DNA from: Escherichia coli | GTDB taxonomy: Bacteria > Pseudomonadota > Gammaproteobacteria > Enterobacterales > Enterobacteriaceae | Assembly (NCBI RefSeq): GCF_024502345.1 | Contig: NZ_JALDNN010000001.1 | DNA: 64,000 nt | Strand: one strand, 5' to 3' | In this document: positions 9,092 through 64,000 of the stretch, piece after piece | How the letters are laid out: each line of letters begins with the position of its first letter | Numbering within the stretch: position 1 is the first letter of the stretch | Translations under genes and position numbers: made by a program | Notes under the pieces: generated by a model | Databases searched by the model: none | Told to the model about the DNA's origin: nothing | What the model saw: only the letters and a program-made list of their open reading frames with translations

Positions 9092-11227
9092 ATGAAATCA
9101 ATGAATATTGCCGCCAGTAGTGAACTGGTATCCCGACTTTCTTCTCATCGTCGCGTGGTGGCGTTGGGAGATACTGATTTTACGGACGTCGCGGCAGTCG
9201 TCATTACCGCTGCGGATAGTCGCAGTGGCATTCTTGCGTTGCTTAAGCGCACCGGTTTTCATCTACCGGTGTTTTTGTATTCCGAACATGCTGTTGAATT
9301 ACCTGCGGGCGTTACGGCGGTAATCAACGGCAACGAGCAGCAGTGGCTGGAGCTGGAATCCGCAGCCTGTCAGTATGAAGAGAATTTGCTGCCACCGTTT
9401 TATGACACGCTGACGCAGTACGTTGAGATGGGCAACAGCACCTTTGCTTGCCCTGGACATCAACATGGTGCGTTTTTTAAAAAGCATCCTGCCGGACGCC
9501 ATTTTTACGATTTCTTTGGTGAGAACGTCTTTCGCGCCGATATGTGTAACGCTGACGTAAAATTGGGCGATCTGCTTATTCATGAAGGATCGGCGAAAGA
9601 TGCGCAGAAATTCGCAGCCAAAGTCTTTCATGCCGATAAAACCTATTTTGTCCTGAACGGCACATCGGCAGCGAATAAAGTGGTGACGAATGCGCTGTTA
9701 ACGCGTGGCGATCTGGTGCTCTTCGACCGTAACAACCATAAGTCGAATCATCACGGCGCGCTGATTCAGGCGGGGGCGACGCCGGTCTATCTGGAAGCTT
9801 CACGCAACCCGTTTGGTTTCATTGGCGGTATTGATGCGCACTGTTTTAATGAAGAGTATCTGCGCCAGCAAATTCGCGACGTTGCGCCAGAAAAAGCCGA
9901 GCTGCCGCGCCCGTTTCGCCTGGCGATTATTCAGCTGGGAACCTATGACGGAACTGTCTATAACGCCCGTCAGGTGATCGATACCGTTGGGCATCTGTGT
10001 GATTACATTCTGTTTGATTCCGCGTGGGTCGGTTACGAACAGTTTATCCCGATGATGGCGGATAGCTCGCCGCTGCTATTAGAACTTAACGAAAACGATC
10101 CGGGGATCTTTGTGACTCAGTCGGTGCACAAACAGCAGGCGGGATTCTCACAGACGTCGCAGATCCATAAAAAAGATAACCATATCCGCGGACAGGCGCG
10201 TTTTTGCCCGCATAAGCGGTTGAATAACGCCTTTATGCTCCATGCTTCTACCAGCCCTTTCTATCCGCTGTTTGCTGCACTGGATGTTAACGCCAAAATT
10301 CATGAAGGGGAGAGTGGGCGTCGGCTGTGGGCTGAGTGCGTTGAGTTGGGTATTGAGTCGCGCAAGGCTATTCTTGCGCGCTGTAAGCTGTTCCGCCCGT
10401 TTATCCCGCCCGTTGTTGATGGCAAATTGTGGCAGGATTATCCGACATCTGTGTTAGCCAGCGACCGCCGTTTTTTCAGTTTTGAGCCGGGGGCGAAGTG
10501 GCACGGCTTTGAAGGATATGCCGCGGATCAGTATTTTGTTGATCCGTGCAAGCTGTTACTCACTACACCAGGTATCAATGCCGAAACCGGCGAATATAGC
10601 GACTTTGGCGTTCCGGCGACGATTCTGGCGCACTATCTGCGTGAGAACGGCATTGTGCCGGAGAAGTGCGATCTCAACTCCATTCTGTTCTTATTAACTC
10701 CGGCGGAAAGCCACGAGAAGCTGGCACAACTGGTAGCGATGTTGGCGCAGTTTGAACAGCATATTGAGGATGACTCGCCGCTGGCTGAGGTGTTGCCGAG
10801 CGTTTATAACAAATATCCGGTGCGCTATCGCGACTACACCCTGCGCCAGTTGTGTCAGGAGATGCACGATCTGTATGTCAGTTTCGACGTCAAAGACCTA
10901 CAAAAAGCGATGTTCCGCCAGCAGAGTTTCCCGTCAGTGGTGATGAACCCCCAGGATGCGCATAGCGCTTATATTCGCGGTGAAGTGGAGTTGGTGCGGA
11001 TTCGTGATGCCGAAGGGCGAATTGCGGCAGAAGGGGCGTTGCCTTATCCACCTGGCGTGCTTTGCGTGGTACCCGGGGAAGTCTGGGGTGGGGCGGTTCA
11101 ACGTTATTTCCTTGCACTGGAAGAAGGGGTGAATTTGTTGCCGGGATTTTCGCCGGAGCTGCAAGGTGTTTATAGCGAAACCGATGCGGATGGCATGAAA
11201 CGGTTGTACGGTTATGTGTTGAAGTAA
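9092..11227 (+). CDS. speC: ornithine decarboxylase, constitutive (711 aa)
   Basis: Start MKSMNIAASSELVSRL at internal Met of ORF 9032..11227; length matches. Confidence 0.9.
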   Translation: MKSMNIAASSELVSRLSSHRRVVALGDTDFTDVAAVVITAADSRSGILALLKRTGFHLPVFLYSEHAVELPAGVTAVINGNEQQWLELESAACQYEENLLPPFYDTLTQYVEMGNSTFACPGHQHGAFFKKHPAGRHFYDFFGENVFRADMCNADVKLGDLLIHEGSAKDAQKFAAKVFHADKTYFVLNGTSAANKVVTNALLTRGDLVLFDRNNHKSNHHGALIQAGATPVYLEASRNPFGFIGGIDAHCFNEEYLRQQIRDVAPEKAELPRPFRLAIIQLGTYDGTVYNARQVIDTVGHLCDYILFDSAWVGYEQFIPMMADSSPLLLELNENDPGIFVTQSVHKQQAGFSQTSQIHKKDNHIRGQARFCPHKRLNNAFMLHASTSPFYPLFAALDVNAKIHEGESGRRLWAECVELGIESRKAILARCKLFRPFIPPVVDGKLWQDYPTSVLASDRRFFSFEPGAKWHGFEGYAADQYFVDPCKLLLTTPGINAETGEYSDFGVPATILAHYLRENGIVPEKCDLNSILFLLTPAESHEKLAQLVAMLAQFEQHIEDDSPLAEVLPSVYNKYPVRYRDYTLRQLCQEMHDLYVSFDVKDLQKAMFRQQSFPSVVMNPQDAHSAYIRGEVELVRIRDAEGRIAAEGALPYPPGVLCVVPGEVWGGAVQRYFLALEEGVNLLPGFSPELQGVYSETDADGMKRLYGYVLK

Positions 11228-11231
11228 GAAT

Positions 11232-11268
11232 AAAAAAAACGGGTCGCCTTCTGGCGACCCGTTTTTCT
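11232..11268. terminator. bidirectional intrinsic terminator between speC and nupG
   Basis: A-run, stem acgggtcgcc/ggcgacccgt, T-run. Confidence 0.7.
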
Positions 11269-11276
11269 TTGCGTAA

Positions 11277-39308: not shown

Positions 39309-39505
<197 letters not shown>

Positions 39506-46982: not shown

Positions 46983-47492
46983 ATGGCGACGCTGACAGAA
47001 GATGATGTGCTTGAGCAACTGGACGCACAGGACAATTTATTTTCATTTATGAATACTGCGCATTCAATTTTGCTCCAGGGGATACGCCAGTTTCTGCCGT
47101 CGCTGTTTGTCGATAACGATGAAGAGATCGTCGAATATGCAGTGAAGCCGTTACTCGCCCAAAGCGGCCCGCTTGACGATATTGATGTTGCACTGCGTTT
47201 GATTTATGCGCTGGGAAAAATGGATAAATGGCTGTACGCCGATATCACCCATTTTTCCCAGTTCTGGCATTACCTGAACGAACAGGATGAAACGCCCGGA
47301 TTTGCCGATGACATGACCTGGGATTTTATCAGCAACGTCAATAGCATAACCCGCAATGCGACTTTCTATGACGCGTTGAAAGCGATGAAGTTCGCCGATT
47401 TCGCCGTCTGGTCAGAGGTGCGTTTTACCGGGATGGTCAAAACGGCGCTGACGCTGGCAGTAACGACAACCTTAAAGGAATTAACGCCGTGA
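46983..47492 (+). CDS. yggD: MtlR-like putative regulator (169 aa)
   Basis: Length; synteny. Confidence 0.7.
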   Translation: MATLTEDDVLEQLDAQDNLFSFMNTAHSILLQGIRQFLPSLFVDNDEEIVEYAVKPLLAQSGPLDDIDVALRLIYALGKMDKWLYADITHFSQFWHYLNEQDETPGFADDMTWDFISNVNSITRNATFYDALKAMKFADFAVWSEVRFTGMVKTALTLAVTTTLKELTP

Positions 47493-48202
47493 AAATTGAA
47501 TTAACGGTGAATGGGCTGAACGTGCAAGCGCAGTACCATGATGAAGAGATAGAACGCGTGCATAAACCGTTGCTGCGTATGCTGGCGGCCTTACAGACGG
47601 TAAATCCGCAGCGCCGAACCGTGGTTTTTCTTTGCGCTCCGCCGGGGACGGGTAAATCTACCCTAACCACCTTCTGGGAATATCTCGCGCAACAAGACCC
47701 GGAGCTGCCCGCTATTCAGACGCTCCCGATGGATGGTTTTCACCATTACAATAGCTGGCTGGACGCGCATCAATTGCGCCCCTTCAAAGGCGCACCAGAG
47801 ACATTTGACGTTGCGAAACTGGCGGAAAATCTGCGCCAGGTGGTGGAAGGGGATTGTACGTGGCCGCAGTACGATCGACAAAAGCATGATCCTGTTGAAG
47901 ATGCGTTGCACGTTACCGCACCACTCGTCATCGTCGAAGGAAACTGGTTGTTGCTGGACGACGAGAAGTGGTGCCAGCTTGCGCAATTTTGTGATTTCTC
48001 GATCTTTATCAACGCGCCAGCTACTGCGTTGCGGGAGCGTCTGGTGGGGCGCAAGCTGGCGGGAGGGGTATCGCTGGCAGATGCAGAAGCCTTTTATGAC
48101 CGTACCGACGGGCCGAATGTTCGCCGGGTGCTGGAAGAGAGTCTGCCTGCAAATTTGACCTTAATGATGACCGCTACGGGTGAATATCGTCTGGTGGATT
48201 AA
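47489..48202 (+). CDS. yggC: P-loop kinase family protein (237 aa)
   Basis: Walker A APPGTGKST; synteny. Confidence 0.75.
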   Translation: MKIELTVNGLNVQAQYHDEEIERVHKPLLRMLAALQTVNPQRRTVVFLCAPPGTGKSTLTTFWEYLAQQDPELPAIQTLPMDGFHHYNSWLDAHQLRPFKGAPETFDVAKLAENLRQVVEGDCTWPQYDRQKHDPVEDALHVTAPLVIVEGNWLLLDDEKWCQLAQFCDFSIFINAPATALRERLVGRKLAGGVSLADAEAFYDRTDGPNVRRVLEESLPANLTLMMTATGEYRLVD

Positions 48203-48884
48203 CGTTCCTGATTACACCATCTTCCAGTCGCACCACACGAGAGAAATGACGCCGGGTAAATGCGGCGTCATGACTGATTGCTACCACGCTCGTGCCTCGC
48301 TGGCGGCACTTCTCCAGCCAGCTTTCAAACACGCTCAACCAATTTTCGTCAAAATCCCGACTCGGCTCGTCCAGCAGCAATAGTGGCGGAGAGAGTGCTT
48401 CCAGGCAGGCGACGGCGACCATCCGTCGCTGCGCACTATGCAGATCCAACGGGTGCGCGCTGGCAGTGTCTGCTAACTGACAACATTGCAGGGCAGCATG
48501 GGTACGTTGAGTGATTTCATCCGCCGGGCATTTTTGCAGTTTCAAACCAAATGCGATCTCGTCAGCGACGGTGCTGTGAAAAAGTTGGTTTTCCGCTTCC
48601 TGAAACAGTACGCCAATCTTTGCCGCGCGCTGGCGGTTTTTCAGGTTTTTCATCGCCTGTTGTTGCAGCATAACCGTACCGGCTGTGGGCGTAAGAAGAC
48701 CTGCCATTACTCGTAACAGCGTCGATTTCCCTGCGCCATTGTCACCGGTCAGCGCCAACCATTCACCTTGTTTGAGTTGCAGAGAAATGTCGCAAAGACA
48801 ATCCGTTGCCGCGCCAGGCCAGCGATAAGATATCTGATTTAACGTTAACATAGTGGCTGGAGTGCTCCGTTTTGCAATTGCCAC
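48174..48884 (-). CDS. ABC/ECF-type ATP-binding protein, second ATPase (236 aa; start possibly at 48851)
   Basis: Walker A GDNGAGKST, Q-loop, Walker B LLLLDEPS; tightly coupled to the upstream ATPase gene. Confidence 0.75.
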   Translation of the reverse strand: MAIAKRSTPATMLTLNQISYRWPGAATDCLCDISLQLKQGEWLALTGDNGAGKSTLLRVMAGLLTPTAGTVMLQQQAMKNLKNRQRAAKIGVLFQEAENQLFHSTVADEIAFGLKLQKCPADEITQRTHAALQCCQLADTASAHPLDLHSAQRRMVAVACLEALSPPLLLLDEPSRDFDENWLSVFESWLEKCRQRGTSVVAISHDAAFTRRHFSRVVRLEDGVIRNVNPPDDIHP

Positions 48885-55211: not shown

Positions 55212-55311
55212 TGCCTGATGCGCTACGCTTATCAGGCCTACACGTATCCTGCAATATATTGAATTTGCAGGTTTTTGTAGGCCGGATAAGGCGTTCACGC
55301 CGCATCCGGCA
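55212..55311. repeat. REP/BIME element
   Basis: tgcctgatgcgctacgcttatcaggcct and ggccggataaggcgttcacgccgcatccggca units. Confidence 0.8.
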
Positions 55312-55505
55312 TGACAAAGCGCACATTGATATCTGTCTGAGCCCCGCTCTGCGGGGATTTTTTCGCCAAAAGCAAGGTGATTCAGATGAGAAATCTGTGA
55401 TCTATTTGGCAAAATTATGCTTTATTGTTTACCCTTGTCAGACTGCCCGTCATAAGGCGGCGGAGTGTATTTCTCCATTTTGAGTCAGTTGAAAAGGAAT
55501 ATTGA

Positions 55506-56504: not shown

Positions 56505-57140
56505 GTGTTTTCTTATTACTTTCAAGGCCTTACGCTTGGCGCAGCTATGATCCTACCGCTCGGTCCACAAAATGCTTTTGTGATGAATCAGGGCATTCGT
56601 CGTCAGTACCACATTATGATTGCCTTACTTTGCGCTATCAGCGATTTGGTCCTGATTTGCGCCGGGATTTTTGGTGGCAGCGCGTTATTGATGCAGTCGC
56701 CGTGGTTGCTGGCGCTGGTCACCTGGGGCGGCGTAGCCTTCTTGCTCTGGTATGGTTTTGGCGCTTTTAAAACAGCGATGAGCAGTAATATTGAGTTAGC
56801 CAGTGCCGAAGTCCTGAAGCAAGGAAGATGGAAAATTATCGCCACCATGTTGGCAGTGACCTGGCTGAATCCGCATGTTTACCTGGATACTTTTGTTGTA
56901 CTGGGCAGCCTTGGCGGGCAGCTTGACGTCGAACCAAAACGTTGGTTTGCGCTCGGGACAATTAGCGCCTCTTTCCTGTGGTTCTTTGGTCTGGCTATTC
57001 TCGCAGCCTGGCTGGCACCGCGCCTGCGCACGGCAAAATCACAGCGCATTATCAATCTGGTAGTGGGATGTGTCATGTGGTTTATAGCCTTGCAGCTGGC
57101 GAGAGACGGTATTGCTCATGCACAAGCCTTGTTCAGTTAG
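56505..57140 (+). CDS. argO: arginine exporter, LysE family (211 aa)
   Basis: Length; synteny. Confidence 0.85.
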
Positions 57141-57232
57141 GCGCTATCTGATGGAAAAATAAAACAGAGGCGCTAAGCTTGCCTCCAGAGGTCCTGAATT
57201 TTGGGCAAGTCAATTAACACGGAGAGACTAAC

Positions 57233-57973
57233 GTGAAGTTCAAAGTTATCGCCCTGGCGGCATTAATGGGTATTAGCGGGATGGCAGCGCAGGCTAACGA
57301 ATTGCCGGATGGACCGCATATTGTCACCTCCGGTACGGCAAGCGTGGATGCGGTGCCAGACATTGCCACTCTTGCGATTGAAGTCAATGTGGCCGCAAAG
57401 GATGCCGCTACTGCCAAGAAACAGGCAGATGAGCGCGTCGCACAATACATTTCCTTCCTTGAACTCAATCAGATCGCGAAAAAAGATATCAGCTCAGCGA
57501 ACTTACGCACCCAGCCAGATTATGATTATCAGGATGGTAAAAGTATCCTTAAAGGCTACCGCGCTGTGAGAACGGTGGAAGTCACGCTCCGTCAGTTAGA
57601 CAAACTGAATTCCTTGCTGGATGGCGCGCTGAAGGCGGGTCTTAACGAAATTCGTTCTGTGTCGCTGGGCGTGGCGCAGCCGGATGCCTATAAAGACAAA
57701 GCGCGTAAGGCAGCGATTGATAACGCGATTCATCAGGCGCAGGAACTGGCGAACGGCTTTCATCGTAAACTGGGGCCGGTATATAGCGTGCGCTACCATG
57801 TTTCCAACTATCAGCCCAGCCCAGTGGTGCGGATGATGAAAGCCGATGCCGCGCCGGTGTCCGCCCAGGAAACTTACGAGCAGGCCGCTATTCAGTTTGA
57901 TGATCAGATCGATGTGGTCTTCCAGTTAGAACCTGTGGATCAACAACCCGCTAAAACACCTGCAGCACAATAA
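57233..57973 (+). CDS. yggE: DUF541 / SIMPL-like periplasmic protein (246 aa)
   Basis: Signal peptide; synteny. Confidence 0.8.
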   Translation: MKFKVIALAALMGISGMAAQANELPDGPHIVTSGTASVDAVPDIATLAIEVNVAAKDAATAKKQADERVAQYISFLELNQIAKKDISSANLRTQPDYDYQDGKSILKGYRAVRTVEVTLRQLDKLNSLLDGALKAGLNEIRSVSLGVAQPDAYKDKARKAAIDNAIHQAQELANGFHRKLGPVYSVRYHVSNYQPSPVVRMMKADAAPVSAQETYEQAAIQFDDQIDVVFQLEPVDQQPAKTPAAQ

Positions 57974-58140
57974 TACTTGTAGCCCGACGTATTCGTCGGG
58001 CTAATGCCTTTACCCGATATTGCCTCCTTTTTCTGTAATTTTCTGTAAAACCATGACGTAATCACCTATCTTTGCTCGCGGTTTCATCAAGGATAGGCTG
58101 ACTGAAACGGTTAAGCGGACAAGGATGCGGGGGAGGGGGG

Positions 58141-59037
58141 ATGGACATTTTTATTTCGAAAAAGATGCGCAATTTCATTTTATTAGCGCAAACCAATAAT
58201 ATTGCCCGGGCGGCAGAAAAAATCCATATGACGGCTTCGCCATTTGGTAAAAGCATTGCCGCGCTGGAAGAACAAATTGGCTATACGCTATTTACCCGCA
58301 AAGATAATAATATCAGCCTCAATAAAGCCGGACAGGAACTGTATCAAAAACTGTTCCCGGTTTATCAACGGCTTTCTGCGATTGATAATGAAATCCATAA
58401 CTCAGGGCGTCGTTCACGAGAAATTGTGATTGGCATAGATAATACTTATCCGACAATTATTTTCGATCAGTTGATTAGTCTCGGAGATAAGTATGAAGGC
58501 GTGACCGCCCAGCCAGTTGAGTTCAGCGAAAACGGCGTTATCGATAATCTTTTTGACCGCCAGTTAGATTTTATTATCTCCCCACAGCATGTATCTGCAC
58601 GAGTTCAGGAACTGGAAAACCTGACTATCAGTGAACTACCACCGCTGCGATTAGGCTTTCTCGTTTCTCGCCGTTATGAAGAGCGTCAAGAGCAAGAGCT
58701 GCTTCAGGAGCTGCCCTGGCTACAAATGCGCTTTCAGAACCGGGCCAACTTCGAAGCAATGATTGATGCGAATATGCGACCTTGTGGGATCAATCCAACC
58801 ATTATTTATCGTCCCTACAGTTTTATGGCCAAAATCAGCGCCGTGGAGCGCGGACATTTTCTGACGGTGATCCCGCATTTTGCCTGGCGACTGGTGAATC
58901 CGGCAACGCTGAAATATTTTGATGCGCCGCACAGGCCGATGTATATGCAGGAATATCTTTATTCAATCAGAAATCATCGTTATACCGCCACGATGCTTCA
59001 GCATATTGCTGAAGATCGTGACGGGACAAACCATTAA
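58141..59037 (+). CDS. ygfI: LysR-family transcriptional regulator (298 aa)
   Basis: Size and position next to the scp operon. Confidence 0.65.
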   Translation: MDIFISKKMRNFILLAQTNNIARAAEKIHMTASPFGKSIAALEEQIGYTLFTRKDNNISLNKAGQELYQKLFPVYQRLSAIDNEIHNSGRRSREIVIGIDNTYPTIIFDQLISLGDKYEGVTAQPVEFSENGVIDNLFDRQLDFIISPQHVSARVQELENLTISELPPLRLGFLVSRRYEERQEQELLQELPWLQMRFQNRANFEAMIDANMRPCGINPTIIYRPYSFMAKISAVERGHFLTVIPHFAWRLVNPATLKYFDAPHRPMYMQEYLYSIRNHRYTATMLQHIAEDRDGTNH

Positions 59038-60512
59038 CCCAGCATCGAGCCGGTTGCAATTAAATTACGGTGTAAGTCGAAGACGTGGCTAAGATCGTGG
59101 TGAATATGTCCGCCAGGCGCATTTTCCAGATAGCGATGCAGATAATCCCGATACATAGGATGTGCACAATTATCAATGATCGTGCGGGCGCGTTGAAGCG
59201 GGGAAAGACCGCGCAGATCGGCGATCCCTTGTTCGGTGATGATCACTTTGACGCTGTGTTCGCTGTGATCAACATGGCTGCACATTGGCACGACGGTTGA
59301 GATCTTGCCTTCTTTAGCAATCGACGGGGCCATAAAGATCGACAGATACGCGTTGCGTTCAAAATCACCGCTGCCGCCGATGCCGTTCATCAGATCGACC
59401 CCGGCTACGTGCGTTGAGTTGGCATGCCCGTAAATATCAAACTCCAGGCCGACGTTCAGAGCGATGACGCCCAGACGACGGATGATTTCCGGGTTATTGG
59501 AAATCTCCTGCGGACGCAACACAATGCGGCTGGCAAAGTAATCCATATTGTCGTAAATCTTGCGCAGGGAATCGGCCGAGATTGTCAGGCTGGAGGCGCT
59601 GGCCCCGCTGATTTTGCCGGTTTCCAGTAAATGCACCACCGATTCCTGTAGCACTTCCGAATACATCATAAACGGAGGAATTTCCGGGTTTTCCCCCAGA
59701 CGCGCCATTACCGCATTATTGATATTGCCCACGCCACTTTGCAGCGGCAGAAATTCCGGCGGAATACGCCCATTCGCCATTTCCTGCAACAAGAACGTGA
59801 CCACGTTATCGGCAATCTGCTGGCACATGGGATTTTGCTTATCCAGCATATTACCGGCGTCGGGCAAGTTGGTTTCCACGACGGCGACAATCTTTTTCGG
59901 CTCGATTTGCACATAGCGGGTACCGACGCGATCCATTGCATGGAAGATCGACACGCTATTGCGCCGCGGTGGCGCGCCAGGAATCACAATATCCGCCAGT
60001 TCGGCAACGCGCGCATCGTGATAGTGATTGAGTTCAATGATCACTTTCTTCGCCCGCAGCAGCCAGGTCGGCGCATTACCGATCCCGCTGGTTAACCAGA
60101 CTCGACCATCCGGTGCCAGAGCCGATGCTTCGATGACGGCAACATCAATGTCGCCGAAGAAACCGTAATTAACCATTTGCGCCACTTCGCTCAAATGCAG
60201 GTCAACGAAACTCACCGCGCCCTGATTGATCTTTTTACGTAAACCGGACGATGTTTGATATGGCGCACGCCAGGAAACAGCATCGGCGTCAGAAAGTACA
60301 TCGTCAGCGGCGGCGCTGATTGACGCACCCGTCAGCAGGCGAATTTGATACGGCTTTTTGGCCTCATGCTGTTCGTTAGCTCTGCGGGCAATCGCGGTCG
60401 GTAAGGCTTTCGGCGAACCCGCTGGGGTAAAGCCGCTAAATGCCACCATGTCGTTATGCTGGATAATTTCTGCCGCTTCATCGGCGGTCATCCTTGTCCA
60501 CTGAGTTTCCAT
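59034..60512 (-). CDS. scpC: propionyl-CoA:succinate CoA-transferase (492 aa)
   Basis: Length; synteny. Confidence 0.85.
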   Translation of the reverse strand: METQWTRMTADEAAEIIQHNDMVAFSGFTPAGSPKALPTAIARRANEQHEAKKPYQIRLLTGASISAAADDVLSDADAVSWRAPYQTSSGLRKKINQGAVSFVDLHLSEVAQMVNYGFFGDIDVAVIEASALAPDGRVWLTSGIGNAPTWLLRAKKVIIELNHYHDARVAELADIVIPGAPPRRNSVSIFHAMDRVGTRYVQIEPKKIVAVVETNLPDAGNMLDKQNPMCQQIADNVVTFLLQEMANGRIPPEFLPLQSGVGNINNAVMARLGENPEIPPFMMYSEVLQESVVHLLETGKISGASASSLTISADSLRKIYDNMDYFASRIVLRPQEISNNPEIIRRLGVIALNVGLEFDIYGHANSTHVAGVDLMNGIGGSGDFERNAYLSIFMAPSIAKEGKISTVVPMCSHVDHSEHSVKVIITEQGIADLRGLSPLQRARTIIDNCAHPMYRDYLHRYLENAPGGHIHHDLSHVFDLHRNLIATGSMLG

Positions 60513-60535
60513 TTTTACTCCTTCGTTCGCAGGGA

Positions 60536-61321
60536 TTAATGACCAACGAAATTAGGTTTACGTTTTTCGAGGAAAGCGTTCATCCCTTCCTGGTAATCTT
60601 CGCTGTCATAAACCGCGCGGCGCATCCCCTGAATACGTTCAAATTCATCGGAGTTCATGGTGTGCGCTTCGCCCAGTACACGCAGCTCTTCTTTGATAAC
60701 AGCAATGGCTAACGGCGCTTTCTCAGAGATGTGGTGCGCCATTTGTAAGGTGAAATCTTCCAGTTCTTCCACTTCCACAACATGGTTGAGGATGCCGACA
60801 GCCAGCGCGCGCTGGGCGGTGATGGGCGAAGCGGTAAAAATCAGTTCTTTGACAATGTGGAAGCCCGCGTCGCGGGTCAGGTTGTGAATGCCGACCAGGT
60901 TATACGGGACGCCGAGGTTTACAGGCGTCATTGAGAAGGTTGAGGTACTGGCGGCGATAATCAGATCGGAACTCATGATCATTTCAAATGCGCCACCCCA
61001 AACACTACCTTCCACCATTGAAATGATCGGTTTCGGGAATTTTTGGATCATGCGGGTGATTTGACGCAATGGATCATCATAGGAGAGCGGATCGCGACCG
61101 CCAGACGGCAGTTCGTGAATATCGTGGCCTGCGGAGAAGACTTTGGATCCACTCGGCGCGCGCAAAATGATACAGCGAATTTCCGGCCGGTTGAGATCGC
61201 TTAATGCCTGCATAAGATCATCAATAAAGACTTTACTTAAGGCATTAAGTTTGCGGCCATAGTTAAAGTCAATGACCGCCACTTTGTTGATAGTGACAAC
61301 GTTAACATACTGATAAGACAT
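60536..61321 (-). CDS. scpB: methylmalonyl-CoA decarboxylase, crotonase family (261 aa)
   Basis: Start MSYQYVNVVTINKVAVI at internal Met of the ORF. Confidence 0.85.
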   Translation of the reverse strand: MSYQYVNVVTINKVAVIDFNYGRKLNALSKVFIDDLMQALSDLNRPEIRCIILRAPSGSKVFSAGHDIHELPSGGRDPLSYDDPLRQITRMIQKFPKPIISMVEGSVWGGAFEMIMSSDLIIAASTSTFSMTPVNLGVPYNLVGIHNLTRDAGFHIVKELIFTASPITAQRALAVGILNHVVEVEELEDFTLQMAHHISEKAPLAIAVIKEELRVLGEAHTMNSDEFERIQGMRRAVYDSEDYQEGMNAFLEKRKPNFVGH

Positions 61322-61331
61322 AAAAATTCCT

Positions 61332-62327
61332 TTAATCAAAATATTGCGTCTGGATAAATTCACTGAGCTGCCGCAGGCCGGTGCGCGGTGAGAGCGTATT
61401 GTTATTGACCGCTAAAAGCGTCTGGCGGTAATAGCGATCGAAATCTTCATTCGCGAACAGGTGATTCAGTACTTCTTCTTCGGTCTGCTTACGCAGCCAT
61501 TCCACCGATTGTTGTTGCCGCACTTGTTGTAAACGACCACTGGCAGTTAGCGCGGTTTTGAAGTCGATGATGGCGTGCCAGATCTCATCGATTCCACGTT
61601 TTTCCAGTGCGCTACAAGTCAGAATCCGTGGCTGCCATTCGTCGTATTTACGTCGCAGAATATGCAGGGCACTCTCGTACATATGCCGGGCAATGGCGAC
61701 ATTGGTATGGTTATCGCCATCGTCTTTGTTGATAACGATCAGATCAGCCACTTCCATCAGCCCTTTTTTAATGCCCTGCAGATCATCGCCGCCACCGGCA
61801 ATTTGCAACGAGATAAAACAGTCCACCATGCGGGCGACTTCTGTTTCCGACTGCCCGACGCCAACCGTTTCGACAATCACTACGTCATAACCCGCTGCTT
61901 CGCATAACAGCATTAATTCCCGCGCTCGCTGACTGGCACCGCCCAGATGACCGGAGGATGGTACCGGGCGAATAAACGCCGCTTCGGCACGCGCCAGGTC
62001 ATTCATGCGGGTTTTATCCCCGAGAATGCTACCGCCAGTGACCGGGCTGCTGGGATCGACCGCAATAACCGCGACCTTTAATCCCTCTCGAATCAACAAC
62101 ATGCCAAAGGCCTCAAGAAAGGTACTTTTCCCCGCGCCGGGGGTGCCGGTAACGCCCAGTCGCAGGGTGTTACCGCAGTACGGCATAATGGCATCAAGCA
62201 GCTGCGTACTTAGTGCCTGATGACGCGGGTGACGGCTTTCCACCAGCGTCATGGCCTGGGCGAGTGTGGCACGCTCACCCTGACGTAAGCGGCGAATACT
62301 TTCTGCCAGCGTGGCTTCATTAATCAT
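61332..62327 (-). CDS. argK: methylmalonyl-CoA mutase-associated GTPase, MeaB/ArgK (331 aa)
   Basis: P-loop GTPGAGKST; synteny. Confidence 0.85.
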
Positions 62328-64000
62328 GATGCTGGCTTATCAGATTCAGTACGTCGCGCACACTGTCGAGCATAGGTGTACCTGGACCATAAATCGCCGC
62401 CACGCCGCGCTCTTGCAGGAAGGCGTAATCCTGCGGCGGAATGACGCCACCCGCGACCACGCAGATATCTTCGCGTCCCCATTTTTTCAGCGCTTCGACC
62501 AGTTCCGGGATCAGCGTTTTATGACCGGCAGCCAGTGAGGATGCGCCCACTACGTGAACGTCGTTTTCTACGGCCAGGCGGGCGATCTCTTCAGGTGTAG
62601 AGAACATCGGGCTTAAATCTACGTCGAAACCGAGATCGGAATAGGCGCTGGCGATCACTTTCGCGCCGCGATCGTGTCCATCCTGGCCCATCTTAGCGAT
62701 CAGAATGCGCGGGCGACGACCATTGTCGGCAAGGAACTGCTCCGTTTGCGCAACAATGGCATCGAACTCGGAGGCCGATTTCTCAGACTGATGATAGCTT
62801 TGCGCAATCACGCCGGTAACACACTGGCTTGGCACCAGATAACGGTCGAAAGCGGCTTCCAGCGCATCGGAAATTTCACCCAGGGTGGCGCGAACGCGAG
62901 CGGCATTAACAGCGGCAGCCAGCAGGTTTTCGTTATGCTGTGCGGCGTGAGTCAGGGCGTTCAACGCGGCGGTTACGGCGGCATCATCACGGGTGGCGCG
63001 AATGCGTTCCAGCGAAGCAATTTGCTCGTTACGCACCATCACGTTGTCGATCTCAAGTACATCGGTTTCGTCTTCGTGATCCAGTTTGTACTTGTTGACA
63101 CCAACGATGACACGTTTGCCCTGGTCGATAAGCGACTGTTCGCGCGCTGAGGCCTCTTCGATCATTCGTTTTGGCAGACCTGCTTCGATCGCTTTCGCCA
63201 TACCACCGGCTTCGTCGATCTGTTGGATAATAGCTCTGGCTTGTTTGACGATTTGATCGGTCAGCGACTCAATGTAATAGGATCCGGCCAGTGGATCGAC
63301 GGTGCGGCAGAGTTCTGATTCTTCCTGGATGATGATCTGGGTGTTGCGGGCAATGCGTGCTGAGAAATCGGTAGGCAAACCAAGCGCTTCGTCAAAGGCG
63401 TTGGTATGCAGTGACTGAGTACCGCCTAGCGTCGCAGCCAGCGCTTCAATGGTGGTGCGGATAACGTTGTTATACGGATCCTGTTCAGTCAGGCTCCAGC
63501 CTGAGGTCTGGCAGTGGGTACGCAGCGCCAGTGATTTCGGGTCCTGTGCGCCAAATCCACTGACCGCTTCGCTCCATAAATAACGTGCCGCACGCAACAT
63601 GGCGACGTTCATAAACAGATCCATGCCGATGCCGAAGAAGAACGACAGGCGAGGAGCGAAGTCATCAATTTTCAGTCCGGCAGAGATTGCTGCTTTGATG
63701 TACTCAATCCCATCAGCGAGCGTAAATGCTACCTGCTGCATGCAGTTGGCACCCGCTTCACCCATGTGGTAACCGCTGATACTGATGGTATTAAATCGCG
63801 GCATGTTGCCGGAACACCAGGCGATGATGTCGGCGATAATGCGCATTGACGGTTTTGGTGGGTAAATATAGGTGTTGCGGCAGAGGTACTCTTTGAGAAT
63901 ATCGTTTTGAATGGTGCCGGTCAGTTTATCAGGTGTAACACCTTGCTCTTCTGCGGCGACGATATAAAACGCCAGTACTGGTAGCACTGCGCCATTCATG
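62320..64000 (-). CDS. scpA: methylmalonyl-CoA mutase, C-terminal roughly 560 codons; 5' end beyond window
   Basis: Open frame to window end; B12-binding C-terminal domain ([11 protein letters not shown]). Confidence 0.85.

What the first reader, a model, noticed from the sequence alone, without database searches (positions are those of the whole stretch)
59034..59037. Convergent ygfI and scpC share overlapping stop codons
The sequence TTAA at 59034..59037 serves as TAA for ygfI on the plus strand and TAA for scpC on the minus strand, leaving no intergenic terminator space.
Basis: seen in the sequence. Interest (0 to 1): 0.15.

Follow-up and report, generated by a model that had tools for sequence, protein, structure and literature searches.

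The report
Overlapping stop codons hide a terminator
Two E. coli genes that face each other really do share the four bases TTAA as their stop codons, an ordinary and already annotated arrangement, and the terminator-like hairpin that seems to have no room is built into the last codons of one of the genes.

Summary
ygfI (now srsR, a LysR-type regulator; 58141..59037, +) and scpC (59034..60512, -) both end in TTAA at 59034..59037, with the two TAA codons offset by one base. RefSeq annotates the same 4-nt overlap in K-12. The four tetramers that allow it (TTAA, CTAA, TTAG, CTAG) were described in 2007, so the overlap is known and of low interest.

1. **The geometry is old.** 35 of 42 species loci (Escherichia, Citrobacter, Klebsiella, Kosakonia, Yokenella, Yersinia) keep the exact 4-nt overlap. 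All four tetramers occur among them.

2. **"No terminator space" holds only for intergenic DNA.**
   - Nine nt after the scpC stop, on the scpC-sense RNA, lies an 18-bp hairpin (58985..59024) followed by a U-rich stretch, all inside ygfI's last ~25 codons.
   - It is the most stable local fold in the 64-kb window.
   - It shows compensatory changes across genera.
   - It is far more stable than synonymous recodings of the same peptide allow.
   - In sister genera it is followed directly by UUUUU.
   - No matching element exists for ygfI transcripts.

I read it as an embedded one-way terminator or 3'-end hairpin of the scp operon. That function is inferred: published 3'-end maps show no end here, probably because the operon is nearly silent.

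The parts
58141..59037 (+). ygfI (= srsR / dhfA), a LysR-family transcription factor of 298 aa; stop TAA at 59035..59037
   Evidence: ORF. Pfam HTH_1 (residues 8-65) and LysR_substrate (89-283). RefSeq srsR annotation. Orthologues in 42 species.
59034..60512 (-). scpC (ygfH), propionyl-CoA:succinate CoA transferase of 492 aa, the last gene of the scpA-meaB(argK)-scpB-scpC operon; stop TAA is the reverse complement of 59034..59036
   Evidence: ORF. Pfam AcetylCoA_hydro and AcetylCoA_hyd_C. RefSeq annotation.
59034..59037 (.). TTAA, the shared tail-to-tail stop tetramer (4-nt CDS overlap, 2 bases shared by the stop codons)
   Evidence: Sequence. Kept as YTAR in 35 of 42 species loci: 20 TTAA, 6 CTAA, 3 TTAG, 6 CTAG.
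58985..59024 (-). Core hairpin on the scpC-sense RNA: CCGUCACGAUCUUCAGCA-AUA-UGCUGAAG(C)AUCGUGGCGG, 18 bp with one bulged C. It starts 9 nt after the scpC stop and lies within ygfI codons ~282-295 (TATMLQHIAEDRDG).
   Evidence: Folds. Most stable 46-nt fold in the whole window on either strand (-28.7 kcal/mol, z about -5). Covariation. Synonymous-recoding tests. Strand asymmetry of wobble pairs. Single copy per E. coli genome. No Rfam match.
58965..58976 (-). U-rich stretch UGAUUUCUGAUU downstream of the hairpin on the scpC-sense RNA (reverse complement of ygfI codons for S-I-R-N-H). In most other genera it reads UGAUUUUUCA and abuts an extended stem.
   Evidence: Sequence. Per-species stem and tail table. 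Alignment.

Best explanation
The TTAA is a genuine and ancient 4-nt tail-to-tail overlap of the stop codons of two real genes, srsR/ygfI and scpC.

How it arises and persists (inferred): the complement of a TAA or TAG stop followed by a purine is itself a stop one base over on the other strand. A converging reading frame therefore halts there. Purifying selection on both stops then keeps the geometry. Only the silent changes T<->C at position 1 and A<->G at position 4 are allowed.

The loss of intergenic DNA did not remove the termination signal of the scp operon. A long hairpin followed by a U-rich tract is encoded within the last ~25 codons of ygfI. It forms on the scpC-sense RNA 9 nt after the scpC stop.

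Inferred function: it ends or stabilises the 3' end of scp-operon transcripts and keeps them from running antisense through ygfI. In the ygfI direction the hairpin is weaker (its wobble pairs become A.C mismatches) and has no U tract, so ygfI transcription and translation pass through.

ygfI transcripts, which can start at the argO promoter, have no embedded terminator. They presumably end diffusely inside antisense scpC, through Rho or through collision with converging polymerase (inferred).

Shown here: the overlap, its conservation, and the existence, strand bias and selection of the hairpin. Inferred: what the hairpin does.
For: Overlap and gene identity.

Conservation: 35 of 42 species loci keep the exact -4 geometry, with all four permitted tetramers, down to 71% YgfI and 76% ScpC identity (Yersinia).

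The class is already described (four tetramers; 58 convergent overlaps in E. coli, about a third with a predicted terminator inside the partner gene): PMC2174442.

Hairpin:
- The - strand fold has z = -2.8 over 261 nt.
- It ranks first of about 32,000 46-nt windows on both strands of the 64-kb window, above a canonical terminator at 11227..11272.
- It is present in Escherichia, Citrobacter, Salmonella arizonae, Klebsiella, Yokenella, Kosakonia sacchari and others.
- 91% of cells are paired and 8 of 21 pairs change on both sides. 0 of 500 shuffles reach this, and slid controls give 2-5 such pairs.
- RNAalifold finds the same helix unaided.
- G.U pairs on the - strand outnumber A.C states 108 to 22 cells, or 46 to 22 without the two fixed G.U columns.
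- Native codons give -29.2 kcal/mol against a mean of -16.1 (sd 3.5) for synonymous recodings; 0.06% of recodings reach it.
- The same test gives z from -2.2 to -5.2 in 16 of the 18 tested species that carry the hairpin. This includes a clade (ESNIH1/UBA7338) that uses a different register. It gives z near 0 in the locus with a 128-nt spacer.
- Synonymous diversity in ygfI is near its minimum at codons 276-295; only codons 51-60 are as low.
- In many species the extended stem (-28 to -34 kcal/mol) is followed directly by UGAUUUUUCA. The K-12 allele has UUUCUGAUU right after its stem.

Asymmetry: no excess structure on the ygfI-sense RNA downstream of its stop.

Context: ygfI is co-transcribed with argO-yggE (PMC6131387). 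The scp operon is 'hardly expressed' (PMC3850637) and is Rho-terminated inside scpA and at argK/scpB (PMC7815308).
Against: - No experimental 3' end is listed at the junction in any dataset I could read: Adams 2021 Term-seq, TERMITe, SMRT-Cappable-seq, TRS. The hairpin's function is therefore unproven.
- In the window's own allele the U-rich run does not abut the stem: only 3 U in the first 8 nt after the predicted stem. The simple terminator scan did not call it.
- Yersinia keeps the 4-nt overlap with only a weak large-loop stem before its U tract. The overlap therefore does not require the strong hairpin.
- The sequences are related, and the structure was derived from one of them. Both inflate shuffle-based covariation measures, as the tool itself warns.
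- The YgfI C-terminal peptide is conserved, so part of the nucleotide conservation reflects the protein.
- No C-rich, G-poor Rho-loading region stands out downstream on either strand: C/G is at most 1.3, below the window's 90th percentile of 1.53.
Confidence: 0.62

Rival explanations
1. The hairpin is not itself a terminator. It is a 3'-exonuclease block: scp-operon transcription ends diffusely by Rho further inside antisense ygfI, and the RNA is trimmed back to the stable stem-loop.
For: Dar & Sorek 2018 report that Rho-dependent E. coli transcripts end just after stable stem-loops that lack a U tract (PMC6061677 abstract). The window allele has a poor U tract next to the stem. The scp operon is subject to Rho termination further upstream.
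Against: Most other genera have UUUUU directly after the extended stem, which is the intrinsic-terminator layout. No rut-like C>G region lies just downstream of the hairpin: C/G is 0.7-0.9 for the first ~130 nt. No Rho region or 3' end is listed at this site.
Confidence: 0.2
2. The overlap is neutral genome compaction and the hairpin is a by-product of the conserved YgfI C-terminal peptide or a chance palindrome. Neither has a role in transcription.
For: 4-nt convergent overlaps are common and expected from stop-codon complementarity. Both genes are weakly expressed and no 3' end has been mapped here. Recodings of the peptide already fold to about -16 kcal/mol.
Against: Native codon choice beats 99.9% of synonymous recodings in E. 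coli, and does so in 16 further species. Compensatory changes occur at 8 pairs. A different-register hairpin occupies the same place in the ESNIH1/UBA7338 clade. The fold ranks first in 64 kb.
Confidence: 0.12
3. The palindrome works as double-stranded DNA, as a protein-binding site (for example for SrsR itself or another regulator), rather than as RNA.
For: It contains a perfect 8-3-8 inverted repeat, CTTCAGCA-TAT-TGCTGAAG, and LysR proteins bind dyad-symmetric sites (general knowledge).
Against: The published SrsR box TCAGATTTTGC (PMC9181523) has no match with up to 2 mismatches at 58985..59024. The non-Watson-Crick states are biased towards G.U on the - strand, 108 to 22; a DNA site would show no such bias. 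The stem (18-27 bp) is far longer than a typical operator. No gSELEX target at scp or ygfI is mentioned in the paper.
Confidence: 0.04
4. One of the two stops is mis-assigned, so the overlap is an annotation artefact.
For: None found.
Against: Both frames are open up to TTAA and closed by it. Orthologues end at the same position in 35 of 42 species. YgfI is 298 aa in most and 296 aa in the Yersinia and ESNIH1 clades. NCBI's pipeline annotates the same ends.
Confidence: 0.02

Closest known systems
Convergent (tail-to-tail) 4-nt gene overlaps using the tetramers CTAA/TTAA/CTAG/TTAG (Lillo & Krakauer 2007, PMC2174442)
   Same: Two real genes on opposite strands whose stop codons sit in one YTAR tetramer. 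The E. coli genome has 58 convergent overlaps, and the 4-nt length is a recognised peak.
   Different: Nothing essential. This is a plain member of that class, already present in RefSeq annotation. Added here: it has been kept in exact register across at least nine named genera, with all four tetramers used.
Intrinsic (Rho-independent) terminators located inside the coding sequence of the converging gene
   Same: A G+C-rich stem-loop close to the stop codon, followed by a U-rich tract, lying in the partner's CDS. Lillo & Krakauer counted predicted terminators of this kind in 21 of the 58 E. coli convergent overlaps. In E. whittamii, Citrobacter, S. enterica arizonae and Klebsiella the stem is followed directly by UUUUU.
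   Different: In the window's allele the U run (UUUCUGAUU) is interrupted and lies about 8 nt beyond the core stem. The stem is unusually long (18-27 bp). No mapped 3' end supports it.
Protective 3' stem-loops of Rho-dependent transcripts (Dar & Sorek 2018, PMC6061677)
   Same: A very stable stem-loop just past the stop codon, without a canonical U tract in E. coli.
   Different: No rut-like region immediately downstream and no Rho-dependent region listed at this site. Relatives do carry a U tract.
Bidirectional terminators and programmed RNA polymerase collisions between convergent genes (Wang, Watters, Ju & Liu 2022 preprint, 10.1101/2022.10.23.513370)
   Same: A convergent gene pair with a stem-loop at the boundary, where head-on polymerases could meet.
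   Different: The hairpin here lies upstream of the ygfI stop and has a U tract on one strand only, so it cannot terminate ygfI. The arrangement is one-way, not bidirectional.

Membership tests
Convergent 4-nt stop/stop overlap (YTAR class) | Two genuine protein-coding genes on opposite strands | tested here: met
   Pfam domains in both. RefSeq annotation. Orthologues in 42 species.
Convergent 4-nt stop/stop overlap (YTAR class) | Both stop codons contained in one tetramer CTAA, TTAA, CTAG or TTAG | tested here: met
   TTAA at 59034..59037: + TAA at 59035-37, - TAA at 59036-34.
Intrinsic (Rho-independent) terminator | Stable G+C-rich stem-loop shortly after the stop codon on the sense RNA | tested here: met
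   18-bp stem at -28.7 to -30 kcal/mol, starting 9 nt after the scpC stop. Top-ranked fold in the window.
Intrinsic (Rho-independent) terminator | U tract immediately (0-2 nt) after the stem | tested here: inconclusive
   U in the first 8 nt after the predicted stem: window allele 3, K-12 allele 5 (UUUCUGAU), most Citrobacter, Salmonella and Klebsiella 5-6 (UGAUUUUU). The consensus scan did not call it.
Intrinsic (Rho-independent) terminator | RNA 3' ends mapped at the U tract; termination in vitro without factors | not testable with these tools
   Published maps list no 3' end at K-12 positions ~3,065,800-3,066,599. The operon is nearly silent under those conditions.
Rho-dependent 3'-end protective stem-loop | C-rich, G-poor rut region just downstream of the stem-loop | tested here: not met
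   C/G is 0.7-0.9 for the first ~130 nt and peaks at 1.29. The window's 90th percentile is 1.53.
Rho-dependent 3'-end protective stem-loop | Bicyclomycin-sensitive read-through at the site | tested here: inconclusive
   The Adams 2021 Rho-region table lists scpA (3060897) and argK/scpB (3064032) but nothing at scpC/ygfI. Low expression may hide it.
Bidirectional terminator of a convergent gene pair | One hairpin located after both stop codons, with an A tract on one side and a U tract on the other | tested here: not met
   The hairpin lies 10-49 nt before the ygfI stop. The + strand tail GACAAACCAUUAACCC has no U tract.
REP/BIME-type repeated palindromes | Many copies per genome in intergenic regions | tested here: not met
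   The 71-nt junction has exactly one place per genome in 5421 E. coli genomes, and it is intragenic.
Any curated RNA family (Rfam 15) | Covariance-model match | tested here: not met
   No match with E up to 1 in 58700..59400 on either strand.

The most novel reading that the evidence does not exclude
The embedded hairpin is a selected one-way insulator whose leakiness couples the two units. When the normally silent scp operon is switched on, read-through past the E. coli-type degraded U tract would run antisense across srsR and lower the level of this stationary-phase regulator. The RNA-structure constraint, rather than protein function, would then fix the C-terminal peptide RYTATMLQHIAEDRDG of SrsR. 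It would also help explain why srsR sits tail-to-tail with scpC in every one of the 42 species loci.
Probability: 0.1. Interest if true: 0.45.

Novelty: new member of a known kind. Interest (0 to 1): 0.2.

Why it matters
The overlap itself changes nothing. It is a textbook 4-nt convergent overlap already present in the annotation.

The modest value lies elsewhere. "No intergenic space" does not mean "no terminator". Here the termination-type signal of one operon is written into the codons of the facing gene and has been kept by selection across genera. This matters in three ways.

1. It is a clean example of dual coding, where a protein sequence and an RNA structure share the same bases.
2. 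It is a caution for anyone who recodes, deletes or tags the 3' end of ygfI/srsR, or who engineers the sbm operon for propionate or 1-propanol production. Such edits could change the 3' end of scpC mRNA or antisense transcription over srsR.
3. It is a caution for terminator annotation that searches only intergenic DNA.

Tried and rejected
- **Consensus terminator and promoter scan, 57800..60800.** Four terminator-like sites were found, no more than in shuffles, and none at the junction. The weak 5-bp hairpins at 58838..58853 were not pursued.
- **Rfam scan.** No match.
- **SrsR box TCAGATTTTGC at the palindrome.** No match with up to 2 mismatches. Window-wide hits equal chance.
- **Rho-loading composition scan on both read-through RNAs.** Nothing above background.
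- **Embedded hairpin for ygfI transcripts inside scpC.** The RNAalifold consensus is weak (-6.7 kcal/mol, one compensatory pair). Recoding tests give z near 0 in most species.
- **Published 3'-end and operon datasets.** Dar & Sorek 2018 and Conway 2014 have no supplements held. Adams 2021, TERMITe, SMRT-Cappable-seq and TRS list no 3' end at the junction. Ju et al. 2019 is not held under the PMC id I guessed.
- **Literature search for the hairpin sequence or 'scpC terminator'.** Zero papers.
- **Papers on SrsR/YgfI function.** Neither mentions scpC, an overlap or a terminator.
- **Idea that the ygfI tail is a recent read-through extension over an old intergenic terminator.** Rejected. A distant orthologue with a 128-nt spacer aligns to residue 295 and has a similar length, and the LysR_substrate match runs to residue 283.
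- **Co-loss of srsR with the scp deletion as evidence of a functional link.** Not consistent. srsR is a pseudogene in DETEC-E480 but intact in HM670.

Full report
**1. The observation**

The window is Escherichia coli chromosome. The 2.6-kb stretch around the finding matches 5425 of 5426 complete E. coli genomes at 95-100% identity.

The bases at 59030..59039 read ACCATTAACC, so TTAA is at 59034..59037. A 298-aa ORF on the + strand (58141..59037) ends with TAA at 59035..59037. A 492-aa ORF on the - strand (59034..60512) ends with TAA, the complement of 59034..59036.

Both ORFs are real genes:
- The first carries the LysR HTH and substrate-binding domains.
- The second carries both acetyl-CoA hydrolase/transferase domains.

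RefSeq annotates them as srsR (formerly ygfI) and scpC, with the same 4-nt overlap, in K-12 MG1655 and other strains.

**2. How unusual the overlap is**

It is not unusual as a kind. Lillo & Krakauer (PMC2174442) describe exactly this. [quoted passage not shown] These produce a jump at length 4 in the overlap distribution, and E. coli has 58 convergent overlaps.

The reason follows from the code. The complement of TAA or TAG is TTA or CTA, and if the next base is a purine a stop appears one base over on the other strand. An incoming frame therefore has roughly a one-in-six chance of ending exactly there (my inference).

The same 64-kb window holds a second convergent overlap, of 29 nt, at 48174..48202.

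**3. Conservation**

A scan of one genome per species with the YgfI protein returned 42 loci. In every one, scpC lies tail-to-tail with ygfI.

Thirty-five loci keep the exact 4-nt overlap with both genes intact: 20 TTAA, 6 CTAA, 3 TTAG and 6 CTAG. These reach down to Yersinia, at 71% YgfI and 76% ScpC identity. Only the two silent transitions are tolerated:
- Position 1, T/C, switches scpC between TAA and TAG.
- Position 4, A/G, switches ygfI between TAA and TAG, and is also the third base of the last scpC codon.

The exceptions are informative:
- Salmonella enterica arizonae and diarizonae carry a small indel that shifts the ygfI frame, giving a 15-nt overlap.
- Two Kosakonia species have a 30-nt overlap.
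- One record labelled Aeromonas sp. RU39B has abutting stops, TGATCA.
- One distant record labelled Martelella alba has a 128-nt spacer.
- E. albertii keeps TTAA but has an internal stop in ygfI.

**4. What sits next to the TTAA**

Folding the scpC-sense RNA downstream of its stop shows a long hairpin (z = -2.8 for the 261-nt stretch). Its sequence is CCGUCACGAUCUUCAGCA-AUA-UGCUGAAG(C)AUCGUGGCGG: 18 bp with one bulge, at 58985..59024, starting 9 nt after the stop. It lies entirely inside ygfI codons for TATMLQHIAEDRDG.

Five lines of evidence say it is a selected RNA structure rather than an accident.

1. **Rank.** Among about 32,000 overlapping 46-nt windows on both strands of the 64-kb window it is the most stable fold (-28.7 kcal/mol; mean -8.7, sd 3.9). 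It is ahead of a canonical terminator at 11227..11272 and of REP-like palindromes.
2. **Covariation.**
   - It recurs in Escherichia, Citrobacter, Salmonella, Klebsiella, Pluralibacter, Superficieibacter, Yokenella and Kosakonia sacchari.
   - On a 37-sequence alignment, 91% of cells pair and 8 of 21 pairs change on both sides.
   - No shuffle out of 500 reaches these values, and register-shifted controls give 2-5 such pairs.
   - RNAalifold predicts the same helix unaided.
   - The tool warns that related sequences, and a structure derived from one of them, inflate such measures, so I treat this as supportive rather than decisive.
3. **Codon choice.** Recoding the peptide HRYTATMLQHIAEDRDGT with synonymous codons gives a mean of -16.1 kcal/mol (sd 3.5), against -29.2 for the native sequence. 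Only 0.06% of 5000 recodings reach it.
   - The same test gives z from -2.2 to -5.2 in 16 of the 18 tested species that carry the hairpin.
   - This includes the ESNIH1/UBA7338 clade, where a hairpin in a different register occupies the same place.
   - It gives z near 0 in the locus with a 128-nt spacer, in the two Kosakonia with a 30-nt overlap, and in Yersinia.
4. **Synonymous diversity.** In ygfI it is near its minimum over codons 276-295 (0.69-0.75 against about 1.1). One other window, codons 51-60, is equally low.
5. **Strand.** The non-Watson-Crick states are mostly G.U on the - strand, which are A.C mismatches on the + strand: 108 against 22 cells, or 46 against 22 without the two fixed G.U columns. 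The counts are not phylogenetically independent, but the direction argues for function in the scpC-sense RNA and against a double-stranded DNA site.

The element is single-copy in E. coli (5421 genomes, one place each). It matches no Rfam family.

**5. Is it a terminator?**

In most relatives the helix extends outwards to a stem of -28 to -34 kcal/mol that begins 0-6 nt after the stop. It is followed directly by UGAUUUUUCA or UUUUUCAG, which is the layout of an intrinsic terminator.

In E. coli the U run is interrupted (UUUCUGAUU):
- The K-12 allele still has an outer stem, UCGUC/GAUGA, that abuts it.
- In the window's allele three clustered SNPs in the 9-nt spacer change the YgfI tail from TSH to TNH and weaken that outer stem. 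Only 3 of the next 8 nt are then U.

The simple consensus scan did not flag the site.

The alternative is a protective stem-loop at a Rho-dependent 3' end, as in Dar & Sorek 2018. I find no rut-like composition downstream.

No published map that I could read lists a 3' end here. This is expected if the operon is 'hardly expressed' (PMC3850637) and is cut short by Rho inside scpA and at argK/scpB. The function therefore remains an inference.

**6. The other direction**

The ygfI-sense RNA downstream of its stop shows no conserved or codon-optimised structure. On that strand the hairpin lies before the stop and has no U tract.

SMRT-Cappable-seq reports an argO-yggE-ygfI transcript from a start at 3068836 that covers all of ygfI, with no defined end. 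srsR mRNA rises about 25-fold in stationary phase (PMC9181523).

I infer that ygfI transcripts run into antisense scpC and end diffusely, by Rho or by collision with converging polymerases. This is untested.

**7. Comparison with what is known, and novelty**

The overlap is a plain member of the YTAR convergent-overlap class and is already annotated.

The embedded hairpin belongs to a known kind, terminators inside the partner gene of a convergent overlap. Predicted terminators of this kind were counted in 21 of the 58 E. coli convergent overlaps. I found no description of this particular one.

It is not a bidirectional terminator, not a REP element and not an Rfam family. The palindrome does not match the SrsR box.

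**8. Verdict**

Interest is low at 0.2. The overlap is ordinary. The embedded, conserved, one-way terminator-like hairpin is a tidy example of dual coding with some practical relevance, but it is not surprising to a specialist.

Confidence:
- That the overlap is real: about 0.97.
- That the hairpin is a selected RNA structure on the scpC-sense strand: about 0.75.
- That it terminates or stabilises scp-operon transcripts: about 0.55.

Noticed in passing
window 48174..48202 (ORFs 47489..48202 + and 48174..48884 -): A second convergent overlap in the same window, of 29 nt. The corresponding O157:H7 genes are annotated as an ABC transporter ATP-binding protein and a nucleoside/nucleotide kinase family protein.
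   Followed up: partly
window ~59187..63000; loci L002 5035..6090 and L046 2525..3580: About 1100 of 5426 complete E. coli genomes match only up to window 59187. In the two examined, a deletion fuses a 5' remnant of scpA to the last 153 nt of scpC. The deletion removes meaB, scpB and most of scpC but keeps the TTAA and the hairpin. The two remnants are annotated as overlapping by 24 nt.
   Followed up: partly
window 58717..58719 (ygfI codon 193, TGG); L002, L005, L047: The same nonsense change, TGG to TAG (W193*), makes ygfI/srsR a pseudogene in O157:H7 PV15-279, in strain DETEC-E480 (which has a further TCA to TAA stop) and in the E. albertii type strain. The window's copy is intact. This could be a recurrent mutation or a shared or recombined allele.
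   Followed up: partly
window 59025..59033: E. coli has two common alleles that differ by three SNPs clustered in the last three ygfI codons, in the spacer between the hairpin and TTAA. They are ACAAACCAT (TNH; the window and O157; 2176 genomes at 99% or more) and ACGAGTCAT (TSH; K-12; among the 3206 genomes at 95-99%). The K-12 allele creates an outer stem that brings the U-rich run up against the hairpin.
   Followed up: partly
all loci L004-L045: ygfI lies tail-to-tail with scpC in every one of the 42 species loci recovered, although no published SrsR/DhfA target includes the scp operon. The conserved synteny hints at an unrecognised functional link.
   Followed up: no
window 56505..59037 (argO, yggE, ygfI): SMRT-Cappable-seq lists a novel operon b2923|b2922|b2921 (argO-yggE-ygfI) from a start site at K-12 3068836. 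ygfI can therefore be transcribed by read-through from the argO promoter (PMC6131387 Supplementary Data 2).
   Followed up: partly
L027 (record 'Aeromonas sp. RU39B') and L043 (record 'Martelella alba'): Two genome records with non-enterobacterial names carry ygfI-scpC at 90% and 64% protein identity to E. coli. This suggests mislabelling, contamination or horizontal transfer. RU39B has abutting stops TGA|TCA with zero spacer. L043 has a 128-nt spacer holding G+C-rich hairpins.
   Followed up: no
window 11227..11272 (-), 39363..39408 (-), 55273..55318 (+): Other very stable local folds in the window: a canonical terminator (13-bp G+C stem followed by U8) at 11227..11272, and REP-like palindromes (GCCGGAUAAGGCG motifs) at 39363 and 55273.
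   Followed up: no
window 60536..61363 (-): The mechanical ORF for scpB starts at a GTG and is 275 aa. RefSeq annotates a 786-nt (261-aa) scpB that starts at MSYQYVNVV. The longer ORF is probably just upstream in-frame sequence.
   Followed up: no
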